This document shows, in pieces, positions 2-16,451 of a DNA stretch of 64,000 bases. The DNA is taken from IMG/VR virus record IMGVR_UViG_3300027708_000021; one strand, 5' to 3'. Under the pieces are notes generated by a model. The model did not search any database and was not told the origin of the DNA. It saw only the letters and a list, made by a program, of their open reading frames with translations. The DNA is from a virus. Within the stretch, counting starts at the first letter, position 1. Each line of letters starts with the position of its first letter. A program made the translations under genes and the position numbers.

Positions 2-3000
2 CTAGGACTCAGTGATCAGACAAATCGTTCTAGTCCAGTACAGGTAGGAGTATTAAGCACATGGACTAGTGTAGGGGCCGGTGGTTACTTTACTGTTGCC
101 ACGCAAACATCTGGTACATTATGGGCCTGGGGTAATAACAGTTTTGGTCAATTAGGCCTCAATACTTTGACTAATATTTCTAGTCCAGTACAACTGACTC
201 CTTTGGCTTTGTGGAGTAAGATAGCTACATCTAATGGATCTACCACTTCTGTAATAGGAATACAAAGCAATGGCACACTATGGGCTTGGGGCAATAACAC
301 TTTGGGTCAGTTAGGGGTCAATACTACAACAACTAGCTATTCTAGTCCAGTACAAGTTACTACACTAAATGGGTGGACACAAGTTGCTAGCGGACTTTAT
401 TTCACTGCGGCACTACAAACTCCTGGCACACTATATGCTTGGGGTAGTAACAGTTACGGCCAACTAGGAATTAATACTGCAGTAGCCCAAACGCGATCGA
501 GCCCAACATTAATAGGATTGCCGCCAACAGGTTTATGGAGTAAAGTATTGGCATCTTGTGGCTATTCTACAGCATCAATTCAAAGCGATGGCACACTATG
601 GACATGGGGTAATAATCCTAACGGTCAATTAGGCCTTGGCGATCTAACAAATCGTTCCATCCCAATACAAGTAGGTACATTGAACACGTGGAGCCAACTT
701 GCTGGCGGGCAATTTGGTTTTATGCTAGCTATCCAGACACCAGGAACATTATGGTCCTGGGGTGTAAATAACTTTGGTCAATTGGGTCTTAACACATCAA
801 CTAACTACTCTAGTCCCATACAAGTGGGCACACTGAACTATTGGACTCGAGTTTCCAGCGGATATTTTCATACAGCGGCCATATTAAGCCCAGGTACATT
901 GTGGACATGGGGTTTTAATGCTTATGGTCAAAATGGTCTCAATACTTCGACTAGCTACTCTAGTCCGGTACAAGTGGGAGCATTGAACTATTGGACTCAA
1001 GTTGCTTGCGGATATAATCATACTGCGTCTATTCAGAGCCCCGGTACACTATGGACCTGGGGTAGTAACAGTTACGGCCAACTGGGCATTAACACTGCAA
1101 TAGCCCAAACCCGATCAAGTCCAGTACAAGTGGGTACGCTGAGTACATGGACCCAAGTTGCCTGCGGATATAATTATACTGCGGCCATACAAAGCCCGGG
1201 CACATTGTGGATGTGGGGAAATAACAGTTTTGGCCAATTAGGACAAAGCAACACTACTAACAGAAGTAGTCCAGTACAAGTAGGAGCATTATCTATATGG
1301 ACCAATGTGTCGACTGCTACTAGTAGTAGTAATTCTTTTACTGCAGCCATACAAACGCCAGGAACATTATGGACTTGGGGTAATAATAGTTTTGGTCAAC
1401 TAGGGCTTAATACTTCCACATTAAGTAATATTTTCAGTCCAGTGCAAGTTGGTGCTCTGAGTACGTGGACCCAAATCTCTGCCGGAGTAGCGTATACCGC
1501 AGCTATACTGAGTAATGGAATATTGTATGAATGGGGTCAGAATAATGCTGGACAATTGGGGCAAAATAATACATCTAATCGTTCCAGCCCAACACAAATA
1601 GGTGGGCCATCGTGGACACAGGTCGCTTGCGGATATTATCATAGCACAGCCATACAAAGCAATGGTACATTGTGGTCATGGGGAGCAAATAGTTTTGGTC
1701 AATTAGGGCTTAATACTTCAATATTAAGTAATATTTCAAGTCCAGTACAAGTTGGAGCATTAAGTGTATGGACTCGCGTAGCTCTCGGCAATTATCACAC
1801 TCTAGGTATACAAACCCCGGGTACATTATATGCTTGGGGATTGAATAGTTTTGGTCAATTAGGTACAGGTAATCAAACAAATCTTTCAAGTCCATTACAA
1901 GTTGGCGCACTATCAATCTGGACACAGATTGCTTGCGGATATAGTCATACACTTGCTATACAAACGCCAGGCACACTATGGTCATGGGGTAATAATAGTT
2001 TTGGTCAGTTAGGTCTTAGCGATCAGACAAATAGAAGTAGCCCAGTACAATTAGGTTCATTAAGCACATGGACTCAAGTCTCATGTGGAGCATATTGGTC
2101 TATGGCACTGCAAAACAATGGTACATTATGGTCTTGGGGACTAAACTCATTTGGCCAATTAGGCACCAGCAATCAAGTAAATTATTCTAGTCCAGTACAA
2201 GTAGGCATACTAAGTATCTGGTCTCAAATTGGTAGCCAAGGCAATGCCGCCGCAGTTATACAAAGTAACGGTACATTGTGGTCATGGGGAAGTAATAGTT
2301 TTGGCCAGTTAGGTCTCAATACTAGTACTAATTGGTCTAGTCCAGTACTAATAAACGGAATAAGTAATTGGATACAAGTCACATGTGGCTACTCAAACAC
2401 ACTGGCATTACTGAGCAATGGCTCATTATGGGCTTGGGGCAATAATGTTCAGGGTCAATTAGGTCTTAACACTTCAACTAACTACTCTAGTCCAATACAA
2501 GTAGGCTTATTAAGTTTATGGTCACAAGTATCCAGCGCAGGGTCTTCCACTACAGCTATACAAACACCGGGTACCTTATGGTCTTGGGGATTGAATAGTT
2601 ACGGCGCTTTAGGTCTCAATACTTTAACCAATTACTCTAGCCCAGTACAAATAGGCAATCAATCTTATTGGACTCAACTGGCTGTTAACAATTTTGGAAG
2701 TAGTGCGGTCAGTCAAGGTTTCATGGCTGCCATACAAAGCCCAGGTACACTATGGCTTTGGGGTAATAACAGTTATAATCAATTAGGCTATAGTCCGATA
2801 TCTTATAGAAGTTTTGCCACTCAGATAGGTACATCAGGAGCGTGGACAGGATTCCCCACAGGATCACAGAATAGTATATGGGGCGCCGCAATAAATTCCA
2901 ATAACAATTTATATGTCTGGGGTGTTAATTCCAATAGAATATTAAATTCTAATTATTATATCTATGATACCGTTGATACCATAGCACAAGGTTCAGTTAT

Positions 3001-6000
3001 AGTAAATCCAGTGCCGTTAGATCCTACATTAAGCACACCTATTAAATCAGTGTCGATCGGTGATCAGTTTGGTGTATATGTACAGACTAATGGCACATTA
3101 TGGTCTTGGGGCAATGTAAGTTTTGGTCAAGTGCCCGTAGGAATTCGATCAGTGCCAAGTGCGACTTATATGTCAGGCTGGACTAGAGTGGCTTCTGGGC
3201 CCAGCATCAGTTATCAAAGCATAGCTATACAAAGTCCAGGGACACTATGGTCGTGGGGAAATAATGCAAATGGAGCGTTGGGACTTAGTGACACATCAAC
3301 TCGATCAAGCCCAGTACAAGTGGGCACAACAAGTACTTGGACGCAAATTGCCTGCGGGTATAATTTTAGTACAGCCCTACAAAGCAATGGGTCATTATGG
3401 TCATGGGGTTATAATGCTCATGGAGAATTAGGCCTGAGCGACACAGCAAATCGTTCTAGCCCAGTACAAGTGGGGGCATTAACTAGTTGGACGCAGGTTG
3501 CCAACGGTTATATATATTCAGTAGCTTTACAAACTAATGGTACATTATGGTCATGGGGTTACAATGGTAATGGTCAATTAGGCACTAACAGTCTAACTAA
3601 TGTTTCTAGTCCAGTAGTAGTGGCCTCTAGTGCGTATACGGCTGTATGGGCTAGTACAAATGGTGGTGGTGGTGGTTCCAGTTTTACAGCAGCAATACAA
3701 AGCAATGGTACACTATGGACATGGGGGTCAAATGCTGTTGGTGGGCAATTAGGTCTCGGCGATACAAATAATAGAAGTATTCCAACACAAGTGGGTTTAT
3801 CGAGCACATGGACCCAAATTTCTAGTGGAAATTATTTCACTGTAGCCCTACAAACTCCTGGCACATTATGGGCATGGGGGAATAACAGTCAAGGGCAATT
3901 GGGTCTTAACACATTAACTAACTACTCTAGTCCCGTACAAATGGGTGCGGTAAACTATTGGACGCAAGTATCCTGTGGTTATCAGCATACTGTTGCTCTA
4001 CAAACTCCAGGAACATTATGGTCCTGGGGAAATAACAGTTTTGGTCAGTTAGGCCTCAGCGATACGGTAACTCGTTCTAGTCCAACGCAAGTAGGTGTAC
4101 TGAACTATTGGACACAAGTCTCAAATGGACATAATTTCACAGCAGCCATACTAAGCCCTGGCACATTATGGGCATGGGGCGGTAACGGGGATGGTCAATT
4201 GGGTCAAAGTAATACCACTGATCGATCAAGTCCAGTACAAGTAGGCGCACTGAGTATATGGACTCAGGTTGCCTCCGGAGTTAGATTCATGCTAGCATTA
4301 CAAAGCAACGGCACACTATGGGGTTGTGGATACAATTTTTTAGGTCAATTAGGAAATAATAGTACAACTAATCAATTAAGTCTAGTACAAGTGGGCTCGT
4401 TGAGTGTATGGACTAGAGTATCTGCTAGTACTTACCAGTCTATTGGATTACAAAGCAACGGCACACTATGGGCCTGGGGGTTTAATAGTAGTGGTCAATT
4501 GGGAGTCAGTAATACAACTAATAGATCCAGTCCAACACAAGTAGGCACTCTAAGCTCATGGACTCGAGTCTCTGCTTTAAACAGCTTTTCAAATGCTATA
4601 CAAAACGATGGTACATTATACATCTGGGGCACCAATGGCGGCAATGGACAATTAGGAAATAATAGTACAATTAATCAATCAAGTCCTATACAAGTGTCAT
4701 TAGTAGTTGGAGTACCTAGTACCGCATGGAATAAAATTTCCTGCGGATATGGTCAGACAGCAGCACTACAAAGCGATGGTACATTATGGGCTTGGGGTTA
4801 TAATAATTTTGGACAATTAGGAGTCGGTGATACCGTAAGTCGTTCTAGTCCAGGTCAAATAGGACAATCACCAGGTATTGGGCTATGGAACAAGATCAGT
4901 GGCGGCGGCGCATACTTTGCAGGAATTCAAAGCAACGGAACGCTATGGTCGTGGGGCAGTAATTTTTTGGGTGCGTTGGGACTTAATGACCAAAACAATC
5001 GGTCTAGTCCAGTGCAGATAGGCGCATTGAATATCTGGAGTCAAATCTTTTGCGGTCTAGACGCCAGTACACTAGCTATACAAAGCCCTGGTACATTATG
5101 GGCCTGGGGGCGCAATGATCTAGGCCAATTAGGTATTAGTACTATAACAAATCGTTCAAGTCCAACACAAGTAGGCGCAGTAAATTATTGGACAACTGCC
5201 GCTGTAGGAGCAGAGCATGCCTTAGCAATACAAAGCCCAGGTACACTATGGTCTTGGGGTTTTAATAATAATGGACAATTAGGTAATAATAGTAACTCTA
5301 ATAGAAGTAGCCCAGTACAAATTGGCCTATCAAGTACTTGGACTCGAGTGGCCTGCGGATCTTATTATACCGTAGCTATCCAAACACCAGGTACATTGTG
5401 GGCATGGGGAGATAATAGTTGGGGACAATTAGGCACCAGCAATCAATTTAATCGTTCTAGTCCAGTACAAATAGGCGCATTAAGTGTATGGACTCAAATT
5501 GCCTGCGGATACTCCAGCACAATAGCATTACAAAGCAACGGCACACTATGGACTTGGGGCAATAATAGTTATGGTCAACTAGGGCTCGGCGATCAAATAC
5601 ATCGATCTAGTCCAGTACAAGTGGGTCTATTAAGTCAATGGTCTCAGATCTCTTGCGGATATTATTTTAGTTCAGCTATACAAAATAATGGCACACTATG
5701 GTCATGGGGACTTAACAGTTATGGTCAACTAGGCCTAAGCGATGCAACAAATAGATCTAGCCCAGTTCAAATAGGCTCACTAAGTGTATGGGCTCAACTT
5801 GCACCCACTGGTGATTATAATATGGGGGCTATACAAAGTAATGGAACATTATGGACTTGGGGTAGAAATGACTCTGGTCAATTGGGTCAGAATAATATAG
5901 TTGCTGCTCAATCTAGTCCTGTACAATTAGGCGGTGGACCAACCTGGACTCAATTATCTGCTGGGTATTACTACACCGCAGCTATACAAACACCAGGTAC

Positions 6001-6736
6001 ACTATGGACTTGGGGTAATAATAGTTTTGGTCAACTGGGCAGTAGTAACACAACACATAGATCTAGTCCAGCACAAGTTGGTGCGTTGACCACATGGACA
6101 CAAGTTAGTTGTGGATACTATAGTACACTGGCAACACAAAGCAATGGCACACTATGGACTTGGGGTAATAACAGTTATGGTCAATTAGGTCAAAATGATA
6201 GTACTAACCGTTTTAGTCCAGTACAAGTAGGCACATTGAGTAATTGGTCTCAACTTAGTAACGGAGCCGCATTCTTAGCAGCCATACAAAGCAACGGAGT
6301 ATTATCACTATGGGGTAATAATAGTTATGGTCAACTAGGTTATGCTGCTGTGGTCGCTCCGCTTCAGGTGTCTACACAATCAATTTGGTCGCAAGTGGCT
6401 TGCGGTGTAAATCATGCCTTGGGTGTTCAAAGTAATGGCAGTCTTTGGGCATGGGGTAATAATAGTTTTGGCCAGTTGGGCACCAGCGATGTAACACATC
6501 GTAGTAGCATAACACAAGTAGGCACATTATCCAGCTGGAGTCGCGTGGCCTGCGGATTAGCGCACTCTGCGGCATTACAAAGTAATGGAACATTGTGGGC
6601 TTGGGGCAATAATAGTTGGGGTCAATTGGGACAAGGTAACATTACTAACACATCAAGTCCTGTACAAGTTGGCTCCTTGAGCAGATATGTATCAGTATAT
6701 GCTATGAATTATACTACCTTGGCAGAAACACAATGA
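2..6736 (+). CDS. Giant RCC1/BLIP-II repeat multi-beta-propeller protein (5'-partial; probable virion fibre/adhesin)
   Basis: The frame is open from nt 2 (LGLSDQTNRSSPVQVG...), so the ORF-track start at 167 is not the real start. About 43 repeats of W-x-Q-V-x-x-G...A-I-Q-S/T-N/P-G-T-L-W-x-W-G-x-N-x-x-G-Q-L-G...SSPVQVG. Confidence 0.9.
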   Translation, partial: LGLSDQTNRSSPVQVGVLSTWTSVGAGGYFTVATQTSGTLWAWGNNSFGQLGLNTLTNISSPVQLTPLALWSKIATSNGSTTSVIGIQSNGTLWAWGNNTLGQLGVNTTTTSYSSPVQVTTLNGWTQVASGLYFTAALQTPGTLYAWGSNSYGQLGINTAVAQTRSSPTLIGLPPTGLWSKVLASCGYSTASIQSDGTLWTWGNNPNGQLGLGDLTNRSIPIQVGTLNTWSQLAGGQFGFMLAIQTPGTLWSWGVNNFGQLGLNTSTNYSSPIQVGTLNYWTRVSSGYFHTAAILSPGTLWTWGFNAYGQNGLNTSTSYSSPVQVGALNYWTQVACGYNHTASIQSPGTLWTWGSNSYGQLGINTAIAQTRSSPVQVGTLSTWTQVACGYNYTAAIQSPGTLWMWGNNSFGQLGQSNTTNRSSPVQVGALSIWTNVSTATSSSNSFTAAIQTPGTLWTWGNNSFGQLGLNTSTLSNIFSPVQVGALSTWTQISAGVAYTAAILSNGILYEWGQNNAGQLGQNNTSNRSSPTQIGGPSWTQVACGYYHSTAIQSNGTLWSWGANSFGQLGLNTSILSNISSPVQVGALSVWTRVALGNYHTLGIQTPGTLYAWGLNSFGQLGTGNQTNLSSPLQVGALSIWTQIACGYSHTLAIQTPGTLWSWGNNSFGQLGLSDQTNRSSPVQLGSLSTWTQVSCGAYWSMALQNNGTLWSWGLNSFGQLGTSNQVNYSSPVQVGILSIWSQIGSQGNAAAVIQSNGTLWSWGSNSFGQLGLNTSTNWSSPVLINGISNWIQVTCGYSNTLALLSNGSLWAWGNNVQGQLGLNTSTNYSSPIQVGLLSLWSQVSSAGSSTTAIQTPGTLWSWGLNSYGALGLNTLTNYSSPVQIGNQSYWTQLAVNNFGSSAVSQGFMAAIQSPGTLWLWGNNSYNQLGYSPISYRSFATQIGTSGAWTGFPTGSQNSIWGAAINSNNNLYVWGVNSNRILNSNYYIYDTVDTIAQGSVIVNPVPLDPTLSTPIKSVSIGDQFGVYVQTNGTLWSWGNVSFGQVPVGIRSVPSATYMSGWTRVASGPSISYQSIAIQSPGTLWSWGNNANGALGLSDTSTRSSPVQVGTTSTWTQIACGYNFSTALQSNGSLWSWGYNAHGELGLSDTANRSSPVQVGALTSWTQVANGYIYSVALQTNGTLWSWGYNGNGQLGTNSLTNVSSPVVVASSAYTAVWASTNGGGGGSSFTAAIQSNGTLWTWGSNAVGGQLGLGDTNNRSIPTQVGLSSTWTQISSGNYFTVALQTPGTLWAWGNNSQGQLGLNTLTNYSSPVQMGAVNYWTQVSCGYQHTVALQTPGTLWSWGNNSFGQLGLSDTVTRSSPTQVGVLNYWTQVSNGHNFTAAILSPGTLWAWGGNGDGQLGQSNTTDRSSPVQVGALSIWTQVASGVRFMLALQSNGTLWGCGYNFLGQLGNNSTTNQLSLVQVGSLSVWTRVSASTYQSIGLQSNGTLWAWGFNSSGQLGVSNTTNRSSPTQVGTLSSWTRVSALNSFSNAIQNDGTLYIWGTNGGNGQLGNNSTINQSSPIQVSLVVGVPSTAWNKISCGYGQTAALQSDGTLWAWGYNNFGQLGVGDTVSRSSPGQIGQSPGIGLWNKISGGGAYFAGIQSNGTLWSWGSNFLGALGLNDQNNRSSPVQIGALNIWSQIFCGLDASTLAIQSPGTLWAWGRNDLGQLGISTITNRSSPTQVGAVNYWTTAAVGAEHALAIQSPGTLWSWGFNNNGQLGNNSNSNRSSPVQIGLSSTWTRVACGSYYTVAIQTPGTLWAWGDNSWGQLGTSNQFNRSSPVQIGALSVWTQIACGYSSTIALQSNGTLWTWGNNSYGQLGLGDQIHRSSPVQVGLLSQWSQISCGYYFSSAIQNNGTLWSWGLNSYGQLGLSDATNRSSPVQIGSLSVWAQLAPTGDYNMGAIQSNGTLWTWGRNDSGQLGQNNIVAAQSSPVQLGGGPTWTQLSAGYYYTAAIQTPGTLWTWGNNSFGQLGSSNTTHRSSPAQVGALTTWTQVSCGYYSTLATQSNGTLWTWGNNSYGQLGQNDSTNRFSPVQVGTLSNWSQLSNGAAFLAAIQSNGVLSLWGNNSYGQLGYAAVVAPLQVSTQSIWSQVACGVNHALGVQSNGSLWAWGNNSFGQLGTSDVTHRSSITQVGTLSSWSRVACGLAHSAALQSNGTLWAWGNNSWGQLGQGNITNTSSPVQVGSLSRYVSVYAMNYTTLAETQ

Positions 6737-7869
6737 CCTATAATATAAACAGTAGCCAAGTACTCAATAATAGATATTTTAGTAATTCTACATTTTCCGC
6801 AAACAATGCATTGTATGCCTGGGGTAATAACACTTTTGGTCAATTAGGCCTCAGCGATACAACTAACAGATCAAGTCCAGCGCAAGTTGGCACCTTGAAC
6901 TACTGGACCCAAGTATCCTGCGGATATAATTATTTCTCTCTAGCACTACAAAGTCCAGGAACATTATGGTCCTGGGGAAGCAATTCTTTTGGTCAGTTGG
7001 GTGTTAATACCGCGCCTACAAACAATACCTCTAGCCCAGTACGTGTAGGCTCACTAAGCAACTGGCTACAAATAGCAGCTGGTAACGCCCACTGGTTAGC
7101 TATCCAAAGCCCAGGCACATTATGGAGTTGTGGATATAATGGATACGGTCAGTTAGGTCTTAATACTTCAACAAATTATTCTAGTCCTGTACAGATTGGC
7201 GCTTTGAACACTTGGACACAAGTAGCAGCTGGTAATTACTCTAGTTATGCTATACAGAATACCGGAACACTATGGTCTTGGGGAGTTAATACCTATGGAC
7301 AGTTGGGTCAAATTAATACTACAAACTATTCTAGTCCAGTACAAGTAGGTACATTGAGCACTTGGACACAGATATCCGTGAATTCTACATCTGCTACTGC
7401 TCTAGCAATACAAAGCAATGGTACATTATGGTCGTGGGGCATCAATAATTATGGTCAAATAGGCAATAGCAATACTGTTAATCAATCTAGTCCAGCGCAG
7501 ATAGGCACTTTATCTCTTTGGACCAGAATCGCCAACGGTGGATATTCAAGCTATGCTATACAAAGCAATGGTACACTATGGGCATGGGGATTGAACAGCC
7601 AAGGTCAACTAGGTCTTAACACCACTGTAGGAGTATCTAGTCCGGTACAAGTGGGTACAGCTAGTACTTGGTCGCAGGTAGGCGCCGGCGCACTACAGTT
7701 GATAGCTATACAAAACAATGGCACGTTATGGATGTGTGGCTATAACGCCCAAGGTCAATTAGGAAACAATTCAACTACCAACATTTCTACACTCACCCAA
7801 GTAGGGTCACTAAATAAATGGAACTTTGCTACAGGTGCTTGGCAGATTTTGGCACAGCAAATTCCTTAA
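6733..7869 (+). CDS. Single 7-bladed RCC1-repeat protein, paralog of the upstream giant protein
   Basis: Same repeat consensus; ATGA overlap with the upstream stop. Confidence 0.9.
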   Translation: MTYNINSSQVLNNRYFSNSTFSANNALYAWGNNTFGQLGLSDTTNRSSPAQVGTLNYWTQVSCGYNYFSLALQSPGTLWSWGSNSFGQLGVNTAPTNNTSSPVRVGSLSNWLQIAAGNAHWLAIQSPGTLWSCGYNGYGQLGLNTSTNYSSPVQIGALNTWTQVAAGNYSSYAIQNTGTLWSWGVNTYGQLGQINTTNYSSPVQVGTLSTWTQISVNSTSATALAIQSNGTLWSWGINNYGQIGNSNTVNQSSPAQIGTLSLWTRIANGGYSSYAIQSNGTLWAWGLNSQGQLGLNTTVGVSSPVQVGTASTWSQVGAGALQLIAIQNNGTLWMCGYNAQGQLGNNSTTNISTLTQVGSLNKWNFATGAWQILAQQIP

Positions 7870-9344: not shown

Positions 9345-10123
9345 TAGGTAAGCCCCGTAGGAATGTGTTGGTATCTGCAGAATGTGGCACACTATTAGTC
9401 AATAGATTTGATTACAATCCAGCAAATAACTTTGGGGTAGGGCAGTTTATACTAGACAAAGGGATCGACTGTATGGTCCCTGCTTACATATTAAAAAGAT
9501 ATTTTACAGACATAGCTAATCCCGTAGTAATAGATGTAGGATCTAATATAGGTGTATTTGCTCTCCAAGCAGCACAACATGTGGAACAATTTAACGGCTA
9601 TGTCTATGCCTTTGAACCACAGGAACAACCATTCTATCTTAACTGTGCTAACTATGCCTTGAACAATATCGACAATGCTAGAGTAGAACGATTAGCAGTT
9701 GGCGATACAACCAAGCCAATCACCATACCCAAAATTAATTACTATCAACCTTCTAGCTTTGGTAGTGTGGGATTGACTGGCGAATATGACGGAGATGTAG
9801 GACAAGAATTAGATTTTGGCAATGGTGATCAGGTACCCCAGATCATCATCGATGAATATTTTAAAGATATCGGTAATATTGTATTCGTAAAAATAGATGT
9901 AGAAGGCATGGAGATGAATGTCTTAAAAGGCTCCATGGAAACTATCAAACGGAATCGTCCTTTCTTATTTGTAGAATATACTAAACAACCAAATAACGGC
10001 AACGACTTGAAAGAATTTATTGAGGCCTTGGATTATACAATATATATTACACATCAAGATTTTGTTTGTATTCCAAACGAAAGAGTTGATACAAAAATAC
10101 AAGAGATATTAAACGAATTATGA
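9341..10123 (+). CDS. FkbM-family SAM-dependent methyltransferase
   Basis: VIDVGSNIG, VYAFEP, FVKIDVEGMEMNVLKG. Confidence 0.9.
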   Translation: MIGKPRRNVLVSAECGTLLVNRFDYNPANNFGVGQFILDKGIDCMVPAYILKRYFTDIANPVVIDVGSNIGVFALQAAQHVEQFNGYVYAFEPQEQPFYLNCANYALNNIDNARVERLAVGDTTKPITIPKINYYQPSSFGSVGLTGEYDGDVGQELDFGNGDQVPQIIIDEYFKDIGNIVFVKIDVEGMEMNVLKGSMETIKRNRPFLFVEYTKQPNNGNDLKEFIEALDYTIYITHQDFVCIPNERVDTKIQEILNEL

Positions 10124-11493
10124 TGACTGATCATGACGCTGTAAAACAAACTATAGAAATCTTCACCCGCACTGATTTATTAGATGAGATAGTCACTCTC
10201 TTAGAGACTTTTGAAAAACACAAAGTAGTACCAAACGATTTACTGGGCAATGATTTATATTGTTTTGGGTATAACAAAGCCAAAAAATTCCTTAAATCCA
10301 TCGAATATGGAGAAAGGGCGTTAGAGCAGGCCAAGTCTATTGAAGAAAAACTAGCAGTATCAGCAAACTTGGCCAAAGTATATCTATCGGCTAACAAGCC
10401 TACCAAGGCGGTGTCAGCATTTAAGTTTATGTCTAATAATATAGACATGGGTGCTGAAGGCATGTTAGATCTTTCAGCGGCATTATTTGCCTGTAATAGA
10501 AAAGATGAATCCTATGAGATACTGAAAAATATAGAAAAAGATCTATGGAAGTATGATGGTACCATGGCCGATTCTATATTATTCAACATGGGTGTACACT
10601 ATATAGCTCAAGGTGATTTTAAAACAGGCATGGAACATCTCTCAATAGGCCGTAAATTAAAAGTATTCGGATCATATTCTAAGGTCACAGATGGATTACC
10701 AGAGTGGGATGGCAAGCCACGCCCAGGCAAACATTTATTATTTGTAGCAGAGGGTGGCATCGGTGACGAAATTATCAATGTAAGATTTGTTAAAAATATC
10801 TTAGCCATGGGTATGACCTGTTCTATAATGTCAGTACATGGCATTACCAGCGTTTATAGTCATCTTGGATTTACTAAGATGATCAATACTAGCCAATACA
10901 ACAAACGAGATTTTGACTACTGGACTCCAATGATGGATTTACCAAAGACATTGAATCTTGACGCTGATCAATTATGGACTGGTCCTTACTTAGAAGCCAA
11001 ACCAGAATATATAGAAAAGTACAAAAATTCTATCACTGGTGATTATAAAGTAGGATTACGCTGGGCAGGCAATGCCAGATATGACCATGAACTACATCGA
11101 ACATTAAATCTACAGAGCATGATAAATGCCATGCCAAAAGACAATGCGTGGTCCTTGTACTCCATACAGCGTGATGTGGGCATGGACCAATTAAAACAGA
11201 ATCCCCGTGTCAAAGATCTCAGTTTGGAACTCAAAACATTTGACGACTTGTTGGGAATCATGTATAATTTAGACTTAATCATCACAAGTTGTACCTCTGT
11301 GGCACATGCCGCTTGTGCCATGGGCAAGAAAACTATTATCCTAGTACCAATTATGGAATATTATACTTGGGCAGAAGGTAAGCCAACAGCTAGTTGGTAT
11401 GGCGACAATTTAAGATTGATTAGACAGGTAACTCCAGAAATTTGGAAAGAAGCATACGCAGAATTAAAAGAAGTACTCAAGGACATCGAATGA
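10120..11493 (+). CDS. TPR-repeat plus GT-B (GT9-like) glycosyltransferase
   Basis: Helical TPR-like N-half; EGGIGDEI, VGLRWAG, LDLIITSCTSVAHAACAMGK. Confidence 0.75.
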   Translation: MMTDHDAVKQTIEIFTRTDLLDEIVTLLETFEKHKVVPNDLLGNDLYCFGYNKAKKFLKSIEYGERALEQAKSIEEKLAVSANLAKVYLSANKPTKAVSAFKFMSNNIDMGAEGMLDLSAALFACNRKDESYEILKNIEKDLWKYDGTMADSILFNMGVHYIAQGDFKTGMEHLSIGRKLKVFGSYSKVTDGLPEWDGKPRPGKHLLFVAEGGIGDEIINVRFVKNILAMGMTCSIMSVHGITSVYSHLGFTKMINTSQYNKRDFDYWTPMMDLPKTLNLDADQLWTGPYLEAKPEYIEKYKNSITGDYKVGLRWAGNARYDHELHRTLNLQSMINAMPKDNAWSLYSIQRDVGMDQLKQNPRVKDLSLELKTFDDLLGIMYNLDLIITSCTSVAHAACAMGKKTIILVPIMEYYTWAEGKPTASWYGDNLRLIRQVTPEIWKEAYAELKEVLKDIE

Positions 11494-14309
11494 AAAAAAC
11501 TATTGGATTCGTAACATCGGGATTAAAATTTAACGGACATACTGTTAATGAAAAAGCATTAGGCGGATCTGAATCAGCACTGATCTACATGGCTAGAGAA
11601 ATGTTCAAGCTGGGCAATGATGTAGTAGTATATTGCGAATGCGATGTCCCAGGTTGGTACGATGGCGTGGAATATCGCACAGTAGATCAATACACCAACG
11701 ATAACAAAGCACAGTTTGATACATTAATTGTAAGTAGATTTACAGATTTCCTAGCACTACCAGTTGACAGTAAGATGAATATCCTGTGGTGTCATGATAT
11801 CGATACTAATAATTTTAGAGATGCAATAGGTTGTACTGACAGAGTATTTTGTCTTAGCGAGTTCCATAAGTCTTTATTTGTTAAAAACTATGACATTGAT
11901 CCGACAAATTATGTATGGAAGACTTCTAATGGATATGATCAAGAGATTGTTACAGAGTATGTACCATACGAACAGAAGAAAAATAACTATATCTATGCTA
12001 GCCGTCCTGAGCGTGGCTTAAAATTATTACTGGAAAAGATATGGCCCGAGATCATCGAGCGTAATCCCGATGCGACCTTACATATCTGTACCTACGAACA
12101 TTCATTATCACTACCAGAGGATGTTAAAAAGATACACAAAGAAGTAGAAGACCTATTAGAGTACAGTCGTAATATTAAACAGATTGGTCACTTGCCCAAG
12201 CGTGAGTTTTATGAATTATTGTCTAATTGTGCTTACATGGTATATCCAACGAACTTCCCGGAGATTTCTTGTATCAGTGCCATAGAAGCACAATACAACG
12301 GATGCTTGGTCATCACCACAGATGAATTTGCCATGTCAGAGACCGTAAAGACTGACACTAAAGTCAAGGTCACGGACGACTACGGAACCGTAGACTATGT
12401 AACAAAATTCTTAGCACATTTGGACAAGTACCAAGATGATGTATATGAAGCTGAAGTAGCTAAGGCTAAAAAAGCCATACTACCATATGCTTGGGAGAGA
12501 GTGGCAAAATCCTGGAACTCCGAGATAGATTTCATGTTCAACAAGAGACATGAAAAATACAAAGACAAAATCCTTGACCAATTGGTTTATAATTCTGACA
12601 TTGTAGCCGCTTGGAAATTAACAGGTGACCAGAAATATCGCGATATGTTGGATCAAGGCGAAAAAGATAACTTAACTATTTCCGATTTTACTCCTGTAGC
12701 CAAAGATGAAGATGCTTATCTTAGCGGTCGGGGAATGAAATTAATCGAGCTAGTCCAGAATGAAATTGAGATGTTCCCTAGCAAAAAGTTAAAAATCCTT
12801 GATTTAGGCAGTAATGACGGCATACTTTCGTTACCACTCATGAAGAGATTCGCTGATAATATTGAAGTATTGACTATGTATGATTCGTCTCAGGGTGTAT
12901 TGGACCATGTAAAATCACAGTACAAAACAAAATACCCGCAGATAAATTATATCGTAGATGATGTAAGAAATGTATTGACTTATGACTTACAACCTGACAT
13001 CGTACTCGTTGGCGAATTATTAGAACACATCGAAGACACACAACAGTTCCTTGATTTCTTAATGAAACTTGCTAATAAGAATACATTATTTTATTTTACT
13101 GTACCCATGGGCCCTTGGGAACACATGGTCAAGAGAAAAAAATTAGAAATACATCATGTACATCACTTTGAATTGAATGACTTACATGCTATATTTAAAA
13201 ATGTTGACTTGTCTATAGCTAAAAACGCACACAGTACCAAAGGTCGTAAGGGTGAAATGTGTAGCAACTGGATGTTCTGGTTTACAGCTAGCAAGGATGA
13301 CGACATCGAGTTTGGCTATGTTGACTACGAAGACAAATGGCTCAAGACCAGACCATATAAAACTATATCTACTTGTATGATCGTATGCAACGAAGAAGAT
13401 AATCTCAGTCGTTGTTTGAAAACTGTTACTGATTTTTCTGATGAGATCATTATTGTAGACACAGGATCAACCGATGATACCAAGTATATCGCAGGTAAAT
13501 TCACTGACAAGATCTATGATTTAAAGTGGGAAGAAGAGGATGGCCTTGGCAACTTTGCCAGAGCTAGAAACTACTCTATCAGCCTTGCTACAGGGGATTA
13601 TATCTTTTGGATTGACGCGGATGAACAACTAGAAAATAGTATGGCCCTACAAAAATATATTATCAGCGATTATTACGACGGTATCTTATTGCGTCAAGTA
13701 CAGGCCATGAGTAAGAAAGCGCATGACAACGGAGTCAATGTGGATGTTATGCATGATAGATTTTTTAGAAACAATATAGGCATTAAGTTCACTGGTGTCA
13801 TACATGAATATCCTAGTAGAGATGACGAACATTTCCTAGGTTATAAGATGTTCTGGCAGGATCATATCTATGTCACCCACTACGGTCTGGCAAATCAGGA
13901 GACATTAAAGCGCAAAGCCATAGGAAGAAACGCTAATCTGATATATAAGAATGTAAGAACATACCCTAAACGAGTATTTGCTAGACACTATATCATGGTG
14001 GATTACTGGAGTCAGTTTATCACAGGACATCCAACTCCAGACATGACATGGTTAGAAAAAGGTATGGACATATGGCATAATGACTTGAAGAAATGCGGTG
14101 ATGATTGGACTATCCGATTGTCGCTGGGAGTACTACAGCATTTCTATAGCTATTGTGCCGCAAATGGTATCGCCTTCAAAGGTAAATTGCCCGAGAAGGT
14201 AGCTTTCCAGAATGGAGAAAACGGCGAGATGATAGATTTCTTTGTTGTTGATCCTGAAGAAGAAAGTGATTTTTTCTTGAAATATCTCGCAAATTTCAAG
14301 AGACCTTAA
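11490..14309 (+). CDS. Multidomain GT4-like glycosyltransferase / class I methyltransferase / GT2 glycosyltransferase
   Basis: Start taken at the ATGA overlap (11490). GT4: LGGSESA, YASRPERGL, FPEISCISAIEAQ. MTase: ILDLGSNDG. GT2: CMIVCNEE, IVDTGSTDDT, NFARARN, WIDADE, GVIHE. Confidence 0.85.
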   Translation: MKKTIGFVTSGLKFNGHTVNEKALGGSESALIYMAREMFKLGNDVVVYCECDVPGWYDGVEYRTVDQYTNDNKAQFDTLIVSRFTDFLALPVDSKMNILWCHDIDTNNFRDAIGCTDRVFCLSEFHKSLFVKNYDIDPTNYVWKTSNGYDQEIVTEYVPYEQKKNNYIYASRPERGLKLLLEKIWPEIIERNPDATLHICTYEHSLSLPEDVKKIHKEVEDLLEYSRNIKQIGHLPKREFYELLSNCAYMVYPTNFPEISCISAIEAQYNGCLVITTDEFAMSETVKTDTKVKVTDDYGTVDYVTKFLAHLDKYQDDVYEAEVAKAKKAILPYAWERVAKSWNSEIDFMFNKRHEKYKDKILDQLVYNSDIVAAWKLTGDQKYRDMLDQGEKDNLTISDFTPVAKDEDAYLSGRGMKLIELVQNEIEMFPSKKLKILDLGSNDGILSLPLMKRFADNIEVLTMYDSSQGVLDHVKSQYKTKYPQINYIVDDVRNVLTYDLQPDIVLVGELLEHIEDTQQFLDFLMKLANKNTLFYFTVPMGPWEHMVKRKKLEIHHVHHFELNDLHAIFKNVDLSIAKNAHSTKGRKGEMCSNWMFWFTASKDDDIEFGYVDYEDKWLKTRPYKTISTCMIVCNEEDNLSRCLKTVTDFSDEIIIVDTGSTDDTKYIAGKFTDKIYDLKWEEEDGLGNFARARNYSISLATGDYIFWIDADEQLENSMALQKYIISDYYDGILLRQVQAMSKKAHDNGVNVDVMHDRFFRNNIGIKFTGVIHEYPSRDDEHFLGYKMFWQDHIYVTHYGLANQETLKRKAIGRNANLIYKNVRTYPKRVFARHYIMVDYWSQFITGHPTPDMTWLEKGMDIWHNDLKKCGDDWTIRLSLGVLQHFYSYCAANGIAFKGKLPEKVAFQNGENGEMIDFFVVDPEEESDFFLKYLANFKRP

Positions 14310-14326: not shown

Positions 14327-14581
14327 ATGTATTATGCAAAAATAGTTGATGGACAATTTTTAGGTAGAGTTAATGTAGCTGATGAAACACCTGGTGTACA
14401 TTTTGCCACAGAGCCTACTCCTGAGCAGTTAGCACCATATAATTTAGTAATTGTTTTTGATGCGCCTATACTGCCAACTTACGACCCAGAAACACAAACA
14501 CTAGCTGAAGTCAATCCTACAGTAGGCGGGGATGGACACTGGTATGCTACTTACGAAGTCGTTGATAAAACAACACCTTAA
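14327..14581 (+). CDS. Small acidic protein, possible tail-fibre accessory/chaperone
   Basis: AAGGA RBS; PTYDPETQ motif typical of phage fibre-associated proteins. Confidence 0.45.
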   Translation: MYYAKIVDGQFLGRVNVADETPGVHFATEPTPEQLAPYNLVIVFDAPILPTYDPETQTLAEVNPTVGGDGHWYATYEVVDKTTP

Positions 14582-14598: not shown

Positions 14599-15438
14599 AT
14601 GTCACAGCGTATATTAATCATGGGCCTACCTGGCTCAGGTAAAACTACCTTAGCAGGAGAACTTAAAACGTACTTGGAAAAGCACGGTGATATGAGTTAC
14701 GGTCGTGCTCTTAATGAACACATTGGTAGTTTTGGCTGCGAAGTAAATTGGTTTAATGCCGATGACATCCGCAGAAAATACAACGACTGGGATTTTTCTA
14801 ATGATGGCCGTATCCGTCAAAGTATCCGTATGTTCCAGTTTAGTATGGAATCGGGCGGTGATTATGTAATCTGTGACTTTGTAGCTCCTTTAGTTGAAAT
14901 GCGTAACAACTTCAAGGCCGACTGGACTATCTGGGTAGACACTATCCGCGAAGGTCGTTATGCTGATACCAATGCGGCATTTGTTGAACCTGAACAATAT
15001 GATTTTAGAATCACAGAACAAAACGCAGAAAAATGGGCAGAGTTTATCGGTCAACACATTATTGATAATCGCCGCCGTCCTCGATTTGACTGGCAGAAAG
15101 AAACAGTACAGATGCTAGGCAGGTGGCAACCGTTTCACGATGGACATAAGGCGTTATTTGAAAGATTAATTGCTCGAACAGGACAAGTAGTGATACAAAT
15201 CCGTGACTGTCAAGGTTGGCAAGGATCTAACCCATTCGCTATAGAACAAGTTAAAAAATTTATCCGTAGAGAGTTAGATCCTGTATATCAAGGGCAGTAT
15301 GAAATACAAGTAGTGCCTAATATTGTACACATTGGATACGGGCGTGGGGTAGGGTACACTATAGAACAGGAAGTGTTTGATGACGAAACACACGATATCA
15401 GTGCTACAAAGATTCGTAAAGAGCTGGGCCTTAAATAA
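14599..15438 (+). CDS. cysC: Adenylylsulfate kinase-like domain fused to a HIGH-family nucleotidyltransferase domain
   Basis: P-loop GLPGSGKTT, NADDIR, WDFS..GR; C-domain GRWQPFHDGH and ISATKIR. Confidence 0.75.
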   Translation: MSQRILIMGLPGSGKTTLAGELKTYLEKHGDMSYGRALNEHIGSFGCEVNWFNADDIRRKYNDWDFSNDGRIRQSIRMFQFSMESGGDYVICDFVAPLVEMRNNFKADWTIWVDTIREGRYADTNAAFVEPEQYDFRITEQNAEKWAEFIGQHIIDNRRRPRFDWQKETVQMLGRWQPFHDGHKALFERLIARTGQVVIQIRDCQGWQGSNPFAIEQVKKFIRRELDPVYQGQYEIQVVPNIVHIGYGRGVGYTIEQEVFDDETHDISATKIRKELGLK

Positions 15439-15643
15439 TAGCGAGACTGCTTGGCGTAGTCTTGTTAAGGCCTATTCTTATCGTTGTTGCGGAACCGTAA
15501 CTACAATCGTAATTTCTTATGTGATCACTGGCGAATTTATTCTTAGTCTAGGTATAGGTGCTACAGAAATGATTATTAAACCGTTTATTTACTGGTCCCA
15601 TGAAAGAGTCTGGAGCCGTATTAAATGGGGCAAAAACAATTAA
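15380..15643 (+). CDS. DUF2061-like small membrane protein
   Basis: ET..RSLVKAYSYR...YWSHERVWSRIKWG; start uncertain (ATG 15380 preceded by AGGAAG). Confidence 0.7.
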   Translation: MTKHTISVLQRFVKSWALNNSETAWRSLVKAYSYRCCGTVTTIVISYVITGEFILSLGIGATEMIIKPFIYWSHERVWSRIKWGKNN

Positions 15644-15739: not shown

Positions 15740-15760
15740 AAGCACATTATGTGCTTTTTT
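15740..15760 (+). terminator. Rho-independent terminator ending the modification cassette
   Basis: AAGCACA-TTA-TGTGCTT followed by a T-run. Confidence 0.7.
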
Positions 15761-15788: not shown

Positions 15789-16451
15789 ATGGAAGCTAGA
15801 TATAGAAAAGATTACCCGGGCGAATTTGTTATTTTAGAATCCAAATGGGCCGGTGGTAAAAAACACGAAAAACGCGAATGGATTGAAAATCCTATCATAA
15901 ATCAACACCTATCTGGTAGAGCCGCAGTTATCGGTAGTAGTGAAAGCAGAGATAGATTTGATTATAAAGTATTAGAAGGTCATCGTGGCGGCTTGTTGGG
16001 TTCGTTAAAATTACAAACATACGGCACAGCAAAAATTGCTTTAGATATGCGTTTAGATTTTGCTGTAGATACTGATTACAATAATCTTATTCCTTTGGTC
16101 GAAAGCAAATATACAGAAAATAATATTGTATATACAACTAGTAAGAACTGTCTTAAACAGCCAGGCGAATTTTATTTAACACCATTAAATCCACATTTAT
16201 GTACAGCCGTACTGCCAATATATCTTGCTGCATTCGATGGACATAAAGAAATTTACATGTTAGGTTACGATAAAGAAACAGAGGCTGGACAGTCTGATTG
16301 GATTGATCAAGTTACCAGATTAATGAATGCTTATGCTGGCACACTTTTTATTATGGTTGGTAATAAACTGAATATGCCAGATGCTTGGTTGTCTTGCCCT
16401 AATACTAAAAACTTAGATTTTAGAGACTTTGTAACTCACTGCGATGTTTGA
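15789..16451 (+). CDS. Maf/DUF115-like (sialyltransferase-like fold) protein
   Basis: AAVIGSSESR and LAAFDGHKEIYMLGYD; ATG 15789 lies 5 nt after TAAATA (15778-15783). Confidence 0.5.
   Translation: MEARYRKDYPGEFVILESKWAGGKKHEKREWIENPIINQHLSGRAAVIGSSESRDRFDYKVLEGHRGGLLGSLKLQTYGTAKIALDMRLDFAVDTDYNNLIPLVESKYTENNIVYTTSKNCLKQPGEFYLTPLNPHLCTAVLPIYLAAFDGHKEIYMLGYDKETEAGQSDWIDQVTRLMNAYAGTLFIMVGNKLNMPDAWLSCPNTKNLDFRDFVTHCDV

What the first reader, a model, noticed from the sequence alone, without database searches (positions are those of the whole stretch)
2..16451. Candidate phage-encoded virion glycosylation and sulfation system dedicated to RCC1-propeller fibres
Seen: two RCC1 proteins, nearly devoid of D/E/K and rich in N/S/T, are followed without a break by a 2OG-oxygenase-like protein, a sulfotransferase, an FkbM methyltransferase, a TPR-GT, a GT4-MTase-GT2 fusion, an APS-kinase/NTase fusion, DUF2061 and a Maf/DUF115-like protein. 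Several of these genes are ATGA-coupled. Established: TPR-GTs, GT2 enzymes and Maf proteins can glycosylate proteins; FkbM enzymes often O-methylate glycans; sulfotransferases need PAPS. Inference: the cassette installs a methylated, sulfated glycan on the adjacent fibre proteins and makes its own sulfate donor. This would be a sulfated phage glycan coat, which could affect adsorption, stability or escape from grazers and proteases.
Basis: partly seen in the sequence, partly recalled or inferred. Interest (0 to 1): 0.88.

Follow-up and report, generated by a model that had tools for sequence, protein, structure and literature searches.

The report
Phage propeller proteins with sugar-sulfate enzymes
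An uncultured giant water phage keeps its RCC1 beta-propeller genes, which sit in the tail-fibre region, next to soluble sugar-, methyl- and sulfate-adding enzymes; this pairing recurs in many aquatic phages, so the phage probably decorates these proteins, but nobody has shown it.

Summary
The genes are there as described, with corrections. DUF2061 is the overlapping 88-aa ORF, not the 84-aa one. The "2OG-oxygenase" has that fold but lacks the H-x-D iron site. The kinase resembles APS kinase, but its fused nucleotidyltransferase looks NMNAT-like and no ATP sulfurylase was found. The last gene lies behind a terminator-like hairpin and is only remotely sialyltransferase/Maf-like.

The main new result is comparative. 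The 457-aa protein is a TPR domain joined to a GT9-fold domain (Z 17.6 to GT9, 15.9 to the protein heptosyltransferase TibC). Its homologues form 35 clusters on viral contigs. RCC1 genes lie within 10 kb in 30 of them, a sulfotransferase in 26 and the APS-kinase-like gene in 11.

Among 50,697 phage records, only three genomes (four records, S-SRM01 counted twice) hold a full-length homologue. They are also the three best RCC1 matches, and two are cultured cyanophages (S-SRM01, BUCT-ZZ01).

A module dedicated to the RCC1 proteins is likely. Glycosylation, sulfation and virion location are all inferred.

The near-absence of D/E/K is real but confined to this clade.

This scan had already noted the same module in at least 21 other genomes.

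The parts
2..6736 (+). Multi-propeller RCC1 protein (5' end outside the window; 2244 aa seen), proposed acceptor
   Evidence: 39 RCC1 repeats, PF25390 1878 bits. D+E+K 1.6%, N+S+T 33.4%, 90 sequons against 48.1 +/- 5.7 in shuffles.
6733..7869 (+). Single seven-blade RCC1 propeller (378 aa), proposed acceptor
   Evidence: PF00415, 7 repeats, 5.7e-70. D+E+K 0.5%. Ser-Ser-Pro is invariant in blades 2, 4, 5 and 6 and invariant or at least 90% conserved in the other three, across 22 orthologues or paralogues. ATGA overlap with the upstream gene.
7886..8536 (+). Divergent DUF6445 protein with a double-stranded beta-helix (2OG-oxygenase) fold but no H-x-D metal site
   Evidence: Atlas score 0.96 to DUF6445 clusters. 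Distant homologues carry PF20043. Model pLDDT 90. Foldseek matches WelO5, HygX and OGFOD1, TM about 0.5. C-x-Q replaces the family's H-x-D, while His180 and Arg194 are kept.
8565..9344 (+). PAPS-type sulfotransferase, acceptor unknown
   Evidence: PF13469 7.8e-16 and PF00685 2.3e-10, both over their cut-offs. The only similarity to solved structures is in the PAPS-binding motifs of tyrosylprotein sulfotransferases. Best NCBIfam match is NoeE, far below its cut-off.
9341..10123 (+). FkbM-family SAM methyltransferase (optional member of the cassette)
   Evidence: TIGR01444 91 bits against a cut-off of 37.7. Absent in loci L004-L008. Found in 5 of 35 clusters.
10120..11493 (+). TPR (residues 1-178) plus GT9-fold domain (199-457): candidate protein glycosyltransferase and core partner of the RCC1 genes
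   Evidence: Model pLDDT 93. Z 17.6 to 3tov, 16.4 to WaaF, 15.9 to WaaC and 15.9 to TibC. Foldseek's best whole-chain matches are SPY and OGT. GGIGDE and C-T-S...H are invariant in 39 homologues. Linkage to RCC1 in 30 of 35 clusters.
11490..14309 (+). GT4 - class I methyltransferase - GT2 fusion (939 aa from the ATG at 11490), lineage-specific glycan-extension enzyme
   Evidence: PF00535, PF13489 and PF13692 all over their cut-offs. The GT2 part is nearest the SunS peptide S-glycosyltransferase model, 1.8e-16, below its cut-off. Present in 5 of 35 clusters.
14327..14581 (+). 84-aa ORF of unknown function, kept only in close relatives
   Evidence: No Pfam, NCBIfam or PHROG match. 53-77% identical copies in L001-L007.
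14599..15438 (+). APS-kinase-like P-loop kinase (1-165) fused to a compact H-x-G-H nucleotidyltransferase (170-279)
   Evidence: The kinase profile's best solved match is APS kinase 2yvu, 1.3e-7, aligned over positions 6-104. The NTase has GRWQPFHDGH and ISATKIR, and its best matches are NadM-type NMNAT at 3e-6, below cut-off. The kinase stands alone in L006, L008 and L009.
15380..15643 (+). DUF2061 small membrane protein, in the +1 frame overlapping the end of the kinase/NTase gene
   Evidence: PF09834 1.7e-16. One hydrophobic segment. The same overlap occurs in L015, where the match is 1.9e-20.
15740..15756 (+). Terminator-like hairpin followed by a T run, closing the gene row
   Evidence: Seven-pair stem then TTTTTG. 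A consensus match only.
15789..16451 (+). 220-aa conserved protein, remotely GT42 sialyltransferase/Maf-like; a separate unit, probably not part of the RCC1-linked core
   Evidence: 1647 homologues; the 120 best listed are 58% identical or more. No Pfam match of its own. A profile of distant members matches Cst-I (2p2v) at 9e-5 and Maf (5mu5) only at 1.9. PF01973 is found in 2 of 24 distant members. Seen in 2 of 35 clusters.

Best explanation
This is one copy of a recurrent phage module in which RCC1 beta-propeller proteins, encoded at the end of the tail-fibre gene block, are modified in the host cytoplasm by soluble phage enzymes before assembly.

Proposed steps, all inferred:
1. The TPR domain of the 457-aa protein holds the propeller, and its GT9-fold domain adds the first sugar. 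The likely site is an exposed Ser/Thr, for example the Ser-Ser-Pro that is invariant or nearly so in each blade. This is the way FlmG treats flagellin and TibC/Aah treat autotransporters.
2. In this lineage the GT4-methyltransferase-GT2 fusion and the FkbM enzyme extend and methylate the glycan.
3. The sulfotransferase adds sulfate from PAPS.
4. The APS-kinase-like domain raises the PAPS supply from host APS.

Shown here: the gene content, the folds and the gene linkage. Not shown: the acceptor, the chemistry or the virion location.
For: 1. Architecture. The protein has TPR helices at 1-178 and a GT9-fold domain at 199-457. Z is 17.6 to 3tov, 15.9 to WaaC and 15.9 to the protein O-heptosyltransferase TibC. 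The best whole-chain Foldseek matches are the TPR-bearing protein glycosyltransferases SPY and OGT. In FlmG the TPR half binds the protein substrate (PMC7591256).

2. Linkage on viral contigs. There are 35 homologue clusters at 80% identity. RCC1 is within 10 kb in 30, a sulfotransferase in 26, the APS-kinase-like gene in 11 and a DUF6445-like gene in 12. Two of the five clusters without RCC1 are cut off upstream.

3. Linkage in the phage database. RCC1 occurs in 51 of 50,697 records. Full-length TPR-GT9 homologues occur only in S-SRM01, BUCT-ZZ01 and AG-345-E08. These are the three best RCC1 matches, and the genes lie next to or within a few kb of each other.

4. Position. In a complete 372-kb relative every RCC1 repeat lies directly upstream of the cassette and directly downstream of tail-fibre and tail genes.

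5. Location of the enzymes. They have no membrane segments, and none of the cassette genes matched a lipid-carrier transferase, flippase or polymerase family.

6. Sulfation parts. The sulfotransferase passes its Pfam cut-offs. The kinase aligns with APS kinase well beyond the P-loop.

7. Precedent. Mycobacteriophage capsid and tail-tube proteins carry glycans (Freeman 2023, as summarised in PMC12619734).
Against: - No experiment or proteome shows these RCC1 proteins in virions or modified.
- In phAPEC6 the figure legend colours the RCC1 genes as a class apart from the proteins detected in virions.
- GT9 is classically an LPS-core family.
- The window protein matches no Pfam GT model. In the conserved GT9 C-lobe motif it has an invariant Cys where, read by eye, WaaC has Asp.
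- The sulfotransferase acceptor is open; the only similarity to solved structures is to tyrosylprotein sulfotransferases.
- More distant relatives (sulfotransferase 46-49% identical) lack both RCC1 and TPR-GT9. There the sulfotransferases follow a different fibre protein.
- The kinase/NTase is missing in L003-L005, which keep the sulfotransferase.
- Its full-length homologues occur in Sanovirus siphophages beside NADAR and MazG genes.
Confidence: 0.5

Rival explanations
1. The cassette remodels a host envelope glycan (LPS core, O-antigen or exopolysaccharide) during infection. This could block superinfection or stop progeny sticking to debris. The RCC1 genes are merely neighbours in a variable fibre-region slot.
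For: - The GT9 fold is that of the LPS heptosyltransferases WaaC and WaaF.
- GT4, GT2, FkbM and NoeE-like sulfotransferase families are typical of polysaccharide and Nod-factor tailoring.
- Relatives swap in a carbamoyltransferase and extra sulfotransferases.
- PHROGs label the related GT families as morons or O-antigen conversion genes.
Against: - No enzyme has a membrane segment, and none of the cassette genes matched a lipid-carrier, flippase or polymerase family.
- The GT9 domain is fused to a TPR protein-binding domain.
- It is tied to RCC1 genes across phage families in 30 of 35 clusters and in all three database genomes. A host-directed enzyme gives no reason for that.
Confidence: 0.15
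2. The proteins are modified, but sulfate goes straight onto the propeller (Tyr, Ser or Thr O-sulfation) rather than onto a glycan. Glycosylation and sulfation would then be two parallel decorations.
For: - The only similarity of the sulfotransferase to solved structures is to tyrosylprotein sulfotransferases 1 and 2, E 0.003-0.015.
- Many loci have RCC1, TPR-GT9 and a sulfotransferase without further glycan-building enzymes.
- The RCC1 proteins hold 3.4-4.5% Tyr.
Against: - The matches cover only the two PAPS-binding motifs.
- The best family model is the carbohydrate sulfotransferase NoeE.
- From general knowledge, not tested here: known tyrosine sulfation sites sit among acidic residues. 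These proteins have almost none.
Confidence: 0.12
3. The TPR-GT9 protein is an assembly factor or chaperone for the RCC1 proteins with little or no transferase activity. Alternatively, the RCC1 propellers are non-virion partners that scaffold the enzymes. In either case no glycan coat is made on the virion.
For: - TPR domains are common chaperone adaptors.
- The window protein scores under every Pfam GT model.
- The neighbouring DUF6445 protein has lost its metal site, so inactive enzyme relics exist in this cassette.
- RCC1 proteins are not reported among phAPEC6 virion proteins.
Against: - GGIGDE sits in the loop after the first strand of the GT domain, where WaaC has its catalytic Asp, and is invariant in 39 homologues down to 34% identity. 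So are several C-lobe residues.
- The partnership with an intact sulfotransferase, methyltransferases and further GTs argues for chemistry.
Confidence: 0.1
4. The enzymes hypermodify phage DNA or make a diffusible sulfated, methylated oligosaccharide.
For: Phage glycosyltransferases are best known for DNA glucosylation (PMC12619734). The enzyme set recalls Nod-factor tailoring.
Against: The cassette lies inside the tail-fibre and tail block, not the replication block. No hydroxymethylase or base-modifying gene is in the row. The TPR fusion and the RCC1 linkage are left unexplained.
Confidence: 0.04

Closest known systems
FlmG of Caulobacter crescentus (flagellin O-glycosyltransferase; PMC7591256)
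   Same: A soluble two-part enzyme with an N-terminal TPR domain that binds the protein substrate and a C-terminal GT-B-type transferase. It acts in the cytoplasm on a repetitive surface-structure protein before export or assembly (architecture here).
   Different: No sequence match was tested or found. FlmG transfers pseudaminic acid to flagellin, and no nonulosonic-acid pathway is seen here. The transferase half here is nearest to GT9. The partner is an RCC1 propeller of a phage.
Bacterial autotransporter heptosyltransferases TibC/Aah (PDB 4rap)
   Same: A GT9-fold enzyme that O-glycosylates Ser residues of a repetitive adhesin encoded next to it. Z 15.9, rmsd 3.2 over 246 residues.
   Different: 6-8% identity. 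TibC has no TPR domain and forms an iron-bound dodecamer, which was not examined here. The sugar donor here is unknown.
Mycobacteriophage virion glycosylation (Freeman et al. 2023, as cited in PMC12619734)
   Same: Phage-encoded glycosyltransferases that decorate the phage's own structural proteins.
   Different: The targets there are the capsid and tail-tube C-termini of actinophages. No RCC1, TPR-GT9, sulfotransferase or APS kinase is reported there.
Fibril and capsid glycosylation of giant viruses (Megavirinae, chloroviruses; PMC10117803, PMC9614988)
   Same: Virus-encoded cytoplasmic glycosylation machinery dedicated to surface fibrils or capsid, with rare and methylated sugars (titles and abstracts).
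   Different: These are eukaryotic viruses with unrelated acceptors.
RCC1 / TPR-protein / sulfotransferase / GT2 gene set of cyanophage S-SRM01 (MW015081) and the RCC1 / TPR-GT9 pair of BUCT-ZZ01 (ON615601)
   Same: In S-SRM01: homologous TPR-GT9 (31% identity, 1e-60), RCC1 (42-45%) and sulfotransferase (29%), placed together beside the tail-fibre genes. In BUCT-ZZ01: a TPR-GT9 homologue (29%, 65% of the query covered) directly after its RCC1 protein. Both are cultured phages.
   Different: They belong to Kyanoviridae, not this jumbo lineage. Their RCC1 proteins have normal charge (D+E+K 7.6-9.9%). The genes are annotated only as hypothetical, TPR or sulfotransferase, and the S-SRM01 genome paper contains neither 'RCC1' nor 'sulfotransferase'.

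Membership tests
CAZy GT9 (heptosyltransferase-type GT-B), for residues 199-457 of the TPR protein | GT9 three-dimensional fold | tested here: met
   Z 17.6 (rmsd 2.7, 242 residues) to 3tov; 16.4 to WaaF; 15.9 to WaaC. These stand above the unrelated rows, which score about 12. Model pLDDT 93.
CAZy GT9 (heptosyltransferase-type GT-B), for residues 199-457 of the TPR protein | Match to the family's sequence model (PF01075) | tested here: not met
   No Pfam match for residues 201-457 even at E 10. By contrast, a separate small GT9 in relative L015 does match PF01075. I therefore call it 'GT9-fold', not a filed member.
CAZy GT9 (heptosyltransferase-type GT-B), for residues 199-457 of the TPR protein | Catalytic Asp in the loop after strand 1, and the C-lobe D-T-G..H motif | tested here: inconclusive
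   GGIGD216E is invariant and lies after strand 205-209. The C-lobe motif reads C-T-S..H, with an invariant Cys where, by eye, WaaC has Asp. No residue-level structural alignment was available.
Modular TPR + GT-B protein glycosyltransferases (FlmG, OGT, SPY) | N-terminal TPR array joined to a C-terminal GT-B domain in one soluble chain | tested here: met
   TPR_12 match. Ten helices at 1-178 plus a Rossmann-type domain. The best whole-chain Foldseek matches are SPY, XcOGT and OGT, at low TM of 0.3-0.4. No membrane segment.
Modular TPR + GT-B protein glycosyltransferases (FlmG, OGT, SPY) | The TPR domain binds the protein that is glycosylated | not testable with these tools
   Needs a binding or transfer assay. 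Gene linkage to RCC1 is indirect.
PAPS-dependent sulfotransferase | Family model over its cut-off, with the 5'-phosphosulfate loop | tested here: met
   PF13469 59.4 bits against 27; PF00685 40.7 against 22. GLPRAGTT aligns with the TPST loop.
PAPS-dependent sulfotransferase | Acceptor class (glycan or protein tyrosine) | not testable with these tools
   NoeE scores 28.8 bits against a cut-off of 500. The TPST matches cover only the cofactor motifs.
APS kinase (CysC) | Similarity beyond the P-loop, including the APS-binding D-G-D-x-x-R and F-I-S-P regions | tested here: inconclusive
   The profile of 7 sequences has APS kinase 2yvu as best solved match (1.3e-7, positions 6-104), and other APS kinases follow. 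PF01583 scores 29.6 bits against 21.1, but only the P-loop is aligned. TIGR00455 scores 22 against 138.7. The motif reads N-A-D-D-I-R.
Complete PAPS synthesis (ATP sulfurylase plus APS kinase) | An ATP sulfurylase gene | tested here: not met
   No PF01747 match in the complete 372-kb relative or in four partial relatives, while the control genomes gave matches. CysD/CysN-type enzymes were not searched for. The window's own genome is not held.
Fe(II)/2-oxoglutarate oxygenase | Double-stranded beta-helix fold | tested here: met
   Foldseek gives WelO5, HygX, OGFOD1 and proline hydroxylases, E down to 3e-5, TM about 0.5. Model pLDDT 90.
Fe(II)/2-oxoglutarate oxygenase | H-x-D/E...H iron-binding triad | tested here: not met
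   Canonical DUF6445 members have I-H-F-D. The window protein and its 10 nearest homologues have C at the His position and Q or N at the Asp position. The distal His180 and Arg194 are kept.
Maf / DUF115 (PF01973) and GT42 sialyltransferases, for the 220-aa protein | Match to the family model or to a solved member | tested here: inconclusive
   The window protein has no Pfam match. PF01973 is found in 2 of 24 distant family members, best E 9e-4. Their profile matches Cst-I at 9e-5 and Maf 5mu5 at 1.9. The Atlas lead scored 0.89. No structure was predicted.
FkbM methyltransferase | Family model over its cut-off | tested here: met
   TIGR01444 91 bits against 37.7; PF05050 70 bits against 22.7.
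Phage virion glycosylation system (as in mycobacteriophages) | Glycan demonstrated on a virion protein | not testable with these tools
   Needs virion mass spectrometry. Only the gene position inside the fibre/tail block is shown here.

The most novel reading that the evidence does not exclude
The virion carries RCC1 propellers whose polypeptide is almost free of charge, and whose only charges come from a sulfated, methylated O-glycan added by the phage. This would be a tunable polyanionic coat on the host-recognition apparatus. The kinase/NTase fusion would be a minimal PAPS synthase, with the 110-residue H-x-G-H domain acting as ATP sulfurylase. It might also be tethered to the membrane through a +1 frameshift into DUF2061.
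Probability: 0.1. Interest if true: 0.9.

Novelty: new variant of a known kind. Interest (0 to 1): 0.68.

Why it matters
Self-glycosylation of phage virions has so far been shown only for mycobacteriophage capsid and tail-tube proteins. A 2023 paper calls the role of phage sulfotransferases "unclear" (PMC10580990). cysC in large freshwater phages was listed among metabolic genes, next to a remark on assimilatory sulfate reduction (bioRxiv 10.1101/2020.02.13.942896).

This module gives both genes a concrete and testable job: decorating RCC1 propellers encoded in the tail-fibre block. If that holds, three things follow:
- Host recognition, stability or immune and protease evasion of many aquatic phages would depend on a post-translational sulfo-glycan that the protein sequence does not reveal.
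- Phage cysC would no longer count as a host-metabolism gene.
- A protein substrate class for TPR-GT9 enzymes would be defined.

Two cultured cyanophages, S-SRM01 and BUCT-ZZ01, carry the core pair, so the test is practical now.

Tried and rejected
- Complex prediction of the TPR-GT9 protein with the 378-aa propeller (alignments A1 and A4) gave no verdict: score 0.00, controls not run. It counts neither way.
Neighbourhoods of the homologues were therefore read from viral contigs only.
- The window's own genome is not held.
- Megablast of 24 kb of the window against phages found only a 78-base terminase match.
- Sequence searches of solved structures with the whole TPR protein and with the close homologues of the 220-aa protein gave only spurious hits.
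- I considered reading the kinase/NTase as a NadR-like NAD-salvage enzyme, because of its NMNAT-like motif and the neighbouring Nudix gene. I set this aside for the kinase half, which aligns with APS kinase and occurs alone inside the cassette in relatives. It stays open for the NTase half.
- I considered the charge depletion as a general mark of the acceptor proteins. It is not: linked RCC1 proteins elsewhere have 6.5-13% D+E+K.
- The T4 late-promoter motif TATAAATA gives no timing clue. There is one copy in 64 kb against 8.9 expected.
- Literature searches found no paper linking phage RCC1 proteins to glycosylation or sulfation.


Full report
**Context.** The window is part of an uncultured jumbo myophage.
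- Its large terminase is 52% identical to that of Pseudomonas phage PA5oct and 42-48% to Rak2-like and other jumbo phages.
- Tail sheath, tail tube, terminase and helicase genes follow downstream.
- No whole genome is held for it. Relatives are on viral contigs, one of them a complete 372-kb genome with terminal repeats.

**The observation.**
- The spacers between genes are 16-28 bases, or the genes overlap. Four junctions are ATGA overlaps.
- The two RCC1 proteins have 1.6% and 0.5% D+E+K and 33-36% N+S+T. The enzymes beside them have 18-24% D+E+K.
- N-x-S/T sequons are about twice the shuffled expectation. Part of that comes from one motif copied in every blade.

Four corrections are needed:
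1. DUF2061 is the 88-aa ORF that overlaps the 3' end of the kinase gene in the +1 frame. The 84-aa ORF matches nothing.
2. The 216-aa protein belongs to DUF6445, and its model has the 2OG-oxygenase fold. This subfamily, however, has C-x-Q (or C-x-N) where the family has H-x-D. It is unlikely to be a standard iron oxygenase.
3. In the 279-aa fusion the kinase half aligns with APS kinases through the substrate-binding region (2yvu, 1.3e-7). The 110-residue NTase half carries GRWQPFHDGH and ISATKIR and is nearest to NadM-type NMN adenylyltransferases, below cut-off.
4. The last gene really starts at ATG 15789, after a terminator-like hairpin. It has over 1600 homologues, and the 120 best listed are at least 58% identical. 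It is only remotely like GT42 sialyltransferases and Maf.

**The TPR protein.** An AlphaFold model built on 39 homologues (pLDDT 93) shows ten TPR helices followed by a compact two-lobe Rossmann domain.
- The catalytic half superposes on GT9 enzymes: Z 17.6 on 3tov, 16.4 on WaaF, 15.9 on WaaC and 15.9 on TibC. TibC is the enzyme that heptosylates serines of the TibA autotransporter.
- For the whole chain, Foldseek puts the TPR-bearing protein glycosyltransferases SPY and OGT first.
- GGIGDE is invariant across the family. It sits after the first strand, where GT9 enzymes have their catalytic Asp.
- The protein matches no Pfam GT model. I therefore describe it as having a GT9 fold, not as a filed GT9 member.
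- FlmG of Caulobacter is the experimental precedent for this build. Its TPR half binds flagellin and its GT-B half glycosylates it (PMC7591256).

**Linkage, the decisive test.** I searched viral contigs with the family alignment, which gave 80 loci. I annotated their ORFs by BLASTP against the window's proteins and collapsed the TPR-GT9 proteins at 80% identity. One search lists 36 clusters; two are paralogues on the single locus L043, so I count 35 (its tally prints RCC1 30, sulfotransferase 26). Homologues reach down to 32% identity.

| Gene within 10 kb of TPR-GT9 | Clusters (of 35) |
|---|---|
| RCC1 | 30 |
| Sulfotransferase | 26 |
| DUF6445-like | 12 |
| APS-kinase-like | 11 |
| FkbM | 5 |
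| GT4-MTase-GT2 fusion | 5 |
| 220-aa gene | 2 |

- The usual layout is three propeller genes of 390-410 aa followed by the TPR-GT9 gene.
- Of the five clusters without RCC1, two are truncated upstream. In L043 and L061 the gene follows large N/S/T-rich ORFs, and in L088 a 1707-aa ORF that is low in D/E/K but not N/S/T-rich.
- In the database of 50,697 phage records, RCC1 occurs in 51. Full-length TPR-GT9 homologues occur in three genomes only: S-SRM01, BUCT-ZZ01 and AG-345-E08. These are the three best RCC1 matches.
- In S-SRM01 the order is tail fibre, two RCC1 genes, TPR-GT9 (31% identity), five small genes, RCC1, sulfotransferase, a hypothetical gene, GT2 and an epimerase. In BUCT-ZZ01 the TPR-GT9 homologue directly follows the RCC1 protein.
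- In the complete relative all 43 RCC1 repeat matches fall in one block. That block touches the cassette on one side and tail-fibre and tail genes on the other.

**What is core and what is optional.**
- RCC1 plus TPR-GT9 is the core. The sulfotransferase is a frequent third member.
- The methyltransferases and the three-domain GT fusion are lineage-specific.
- More distant relatives of this phage (sulfotransferase 46-49% identical) lack RCC1 and TPR-GT9. At the same genomic slot they have a different fibre protein with an endosialidase-chaperone domain. It is followed by GT4, GT2, a small GT9, a carbamoyltransferase, two sulfotransferases, the kinase/NTase and DUF2061.
- The wider rule is thus 'glycan-tailoring enzymes after the last fibre-block gene'. 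RCC1 with TPR-GT9 is one well-defined version of it.

**The sulfate donor.**
- The kinase domain stands alone (136-156 aa) inside the cassette in several relatives. That fits a role with the sulfotransferase.
- It is absent from L003-L005, which keep the sulfotransferase.
- Full-length homologues of the fusion occur in Sanovirus siphophages beside NADAR, MazG and DNA methyltransferase genes. In the one neighbourhood read, about 4 kb each side, no sulfotransferase is annotated.
- No ATP sulfurylase was found in the complete relative.
- The best reading is that the phage boosts the APS-to-PAPS step and relies on the host for APS. From general knowledge, that would matter in hosts that reduce APS directly and make little PAPS. 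The role of the NTase half is open.

**Why a protein acceptor rather than the host envelope or DNA.**
- None of the enzymes has a membrane segment; only DUF2061 does.
- None of the cassette genes matched a lipid-carrier transferase, flippase or polymerase family.
- The cassette is in the structural block, not the replication block.
- A TPR fusion and tight linkage to one protein family are what one expects of a dedicated protein-modifying enzyme.

This remains inference. I found no evidence that phage RCC1 proteins are in virions. In the phAPEC6 figure legend the RCC1 genes are coloured apart from the proteins detected in the virion. The complex prediction gave no verdict.

**The charge depletion.** D+E+K at or below 2% is found only in the window and its nearest relatives (L022, L023, L025). 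All other linked RCC1 proteins have 6.5-13%. RCC1 proteins of phages in which no TPR-GT9 homologue was found have 7.7-15.5%. Fibres next to the cassette in the distant relatives are also low, at 3.7-4.3%. It is a real and striking feature of this clade. It is not a general signature of the module, and I cannot explain it.

**Novelty.**
- Phage self-glycosylation is known from mycobacteriophages, and giant viruses glycosylate their fibrils.
- I found no paper that connects phage RCC1 proteins with glycosyl- or sulfotransferases.
- One paper states that the function of phage sulfotransferases is unclear. Another lists phage cysC among metabolic genes and mentions assimilatory sulfate reduction.
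- Within this scan the same module has already been noted in at least 21 other genomes, with the same closest analogues, and this cassette in one other genome. Those are unchecked AI notes and I do not count them as evidence.
- I rate the finding a new variant of a known kind. The sulfation step and the RCC1 acceptor are the new elements.

Noticed in passing
window 15377-15643 against 14599-15438; L015 11926-12240 against 11190-12041: The DUF2061 ORF overlaps the end of the kinase/NTase gene by about 60 bases in the +1 frame. The same arrangement is kept in a relative whose kinase/NTase is only 71% identical. It may be simple overlap, or a +1 frameshift that would tether the enzyme to the membrane.
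   Followed up: partly
window 2-7869; L022, L023, L025: Every RCC1 protein of this clade has at most 2% D+E+K and about 1-2% Arg. That is very unusual for a globular beta-propeller. Related phages with the same enzymes have 6.5-13%. No explanation was found.
   Followed up: partly
L022 and L023, between the DUF2061 gene and the 220-aa gene: The close relatives carry an extra ORF of 586 or 312 aa with 1.2-1.9% D+E+K. The window has only a 145-base spacer with the hairpin at that place, so a low-charge gene has been gained or lost there.
   Followed up: no
L015 1-12300 (also L011): A distant relative has a different tailoring set after an endosialidase-chaperone-type fibre: GT4, two sulfotransferases, GT2, a small GT9 and a NodU-like carbamoyltransferase. 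This set recalls Nod-factor decoration.
   Followed up: partly
window 16436-16885 (- strand): A Nudix hydrolase gene converges on the cassette and is kept next to the sheath-stabiliser-like gene in all relatives, even those without the kinase/NTase. Together with the NMNAT-like NTase domain it could point to NAD or nucleotide-sugar metabolism.
   Followed up: no
whole window: The T4 late-promoter motif TATAAATA occurs once in 64 kb against 8.9 +/- 2.9 expected. This phage probably uses a different late-promoter signal.
   Followed up: no
L018 (Stenotrophomonas phage Bhz60, 15492-16232) and other Sanovirus phages: Full-length homologues (33-37% identical) of the kinase/NTase fusion sit beside NADAR, MazG-like and DNA methyltransferase genes in 56-kb siphophages. 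In the roughly 4 kb read on each side no sulfotransferase is annotated, so the fusion has a function of its own.
   Followed up: partly
L043 6790-11392: One viral contig carries two TPR-GT9 paralogues (385 and 493 aa), a sulfotransferase and a DUF6445-like gene, but no RCC1 within reach. A 727-aa protein with 37% N/S/T precedes them, which may be another acceptor type.
   Followed up: no
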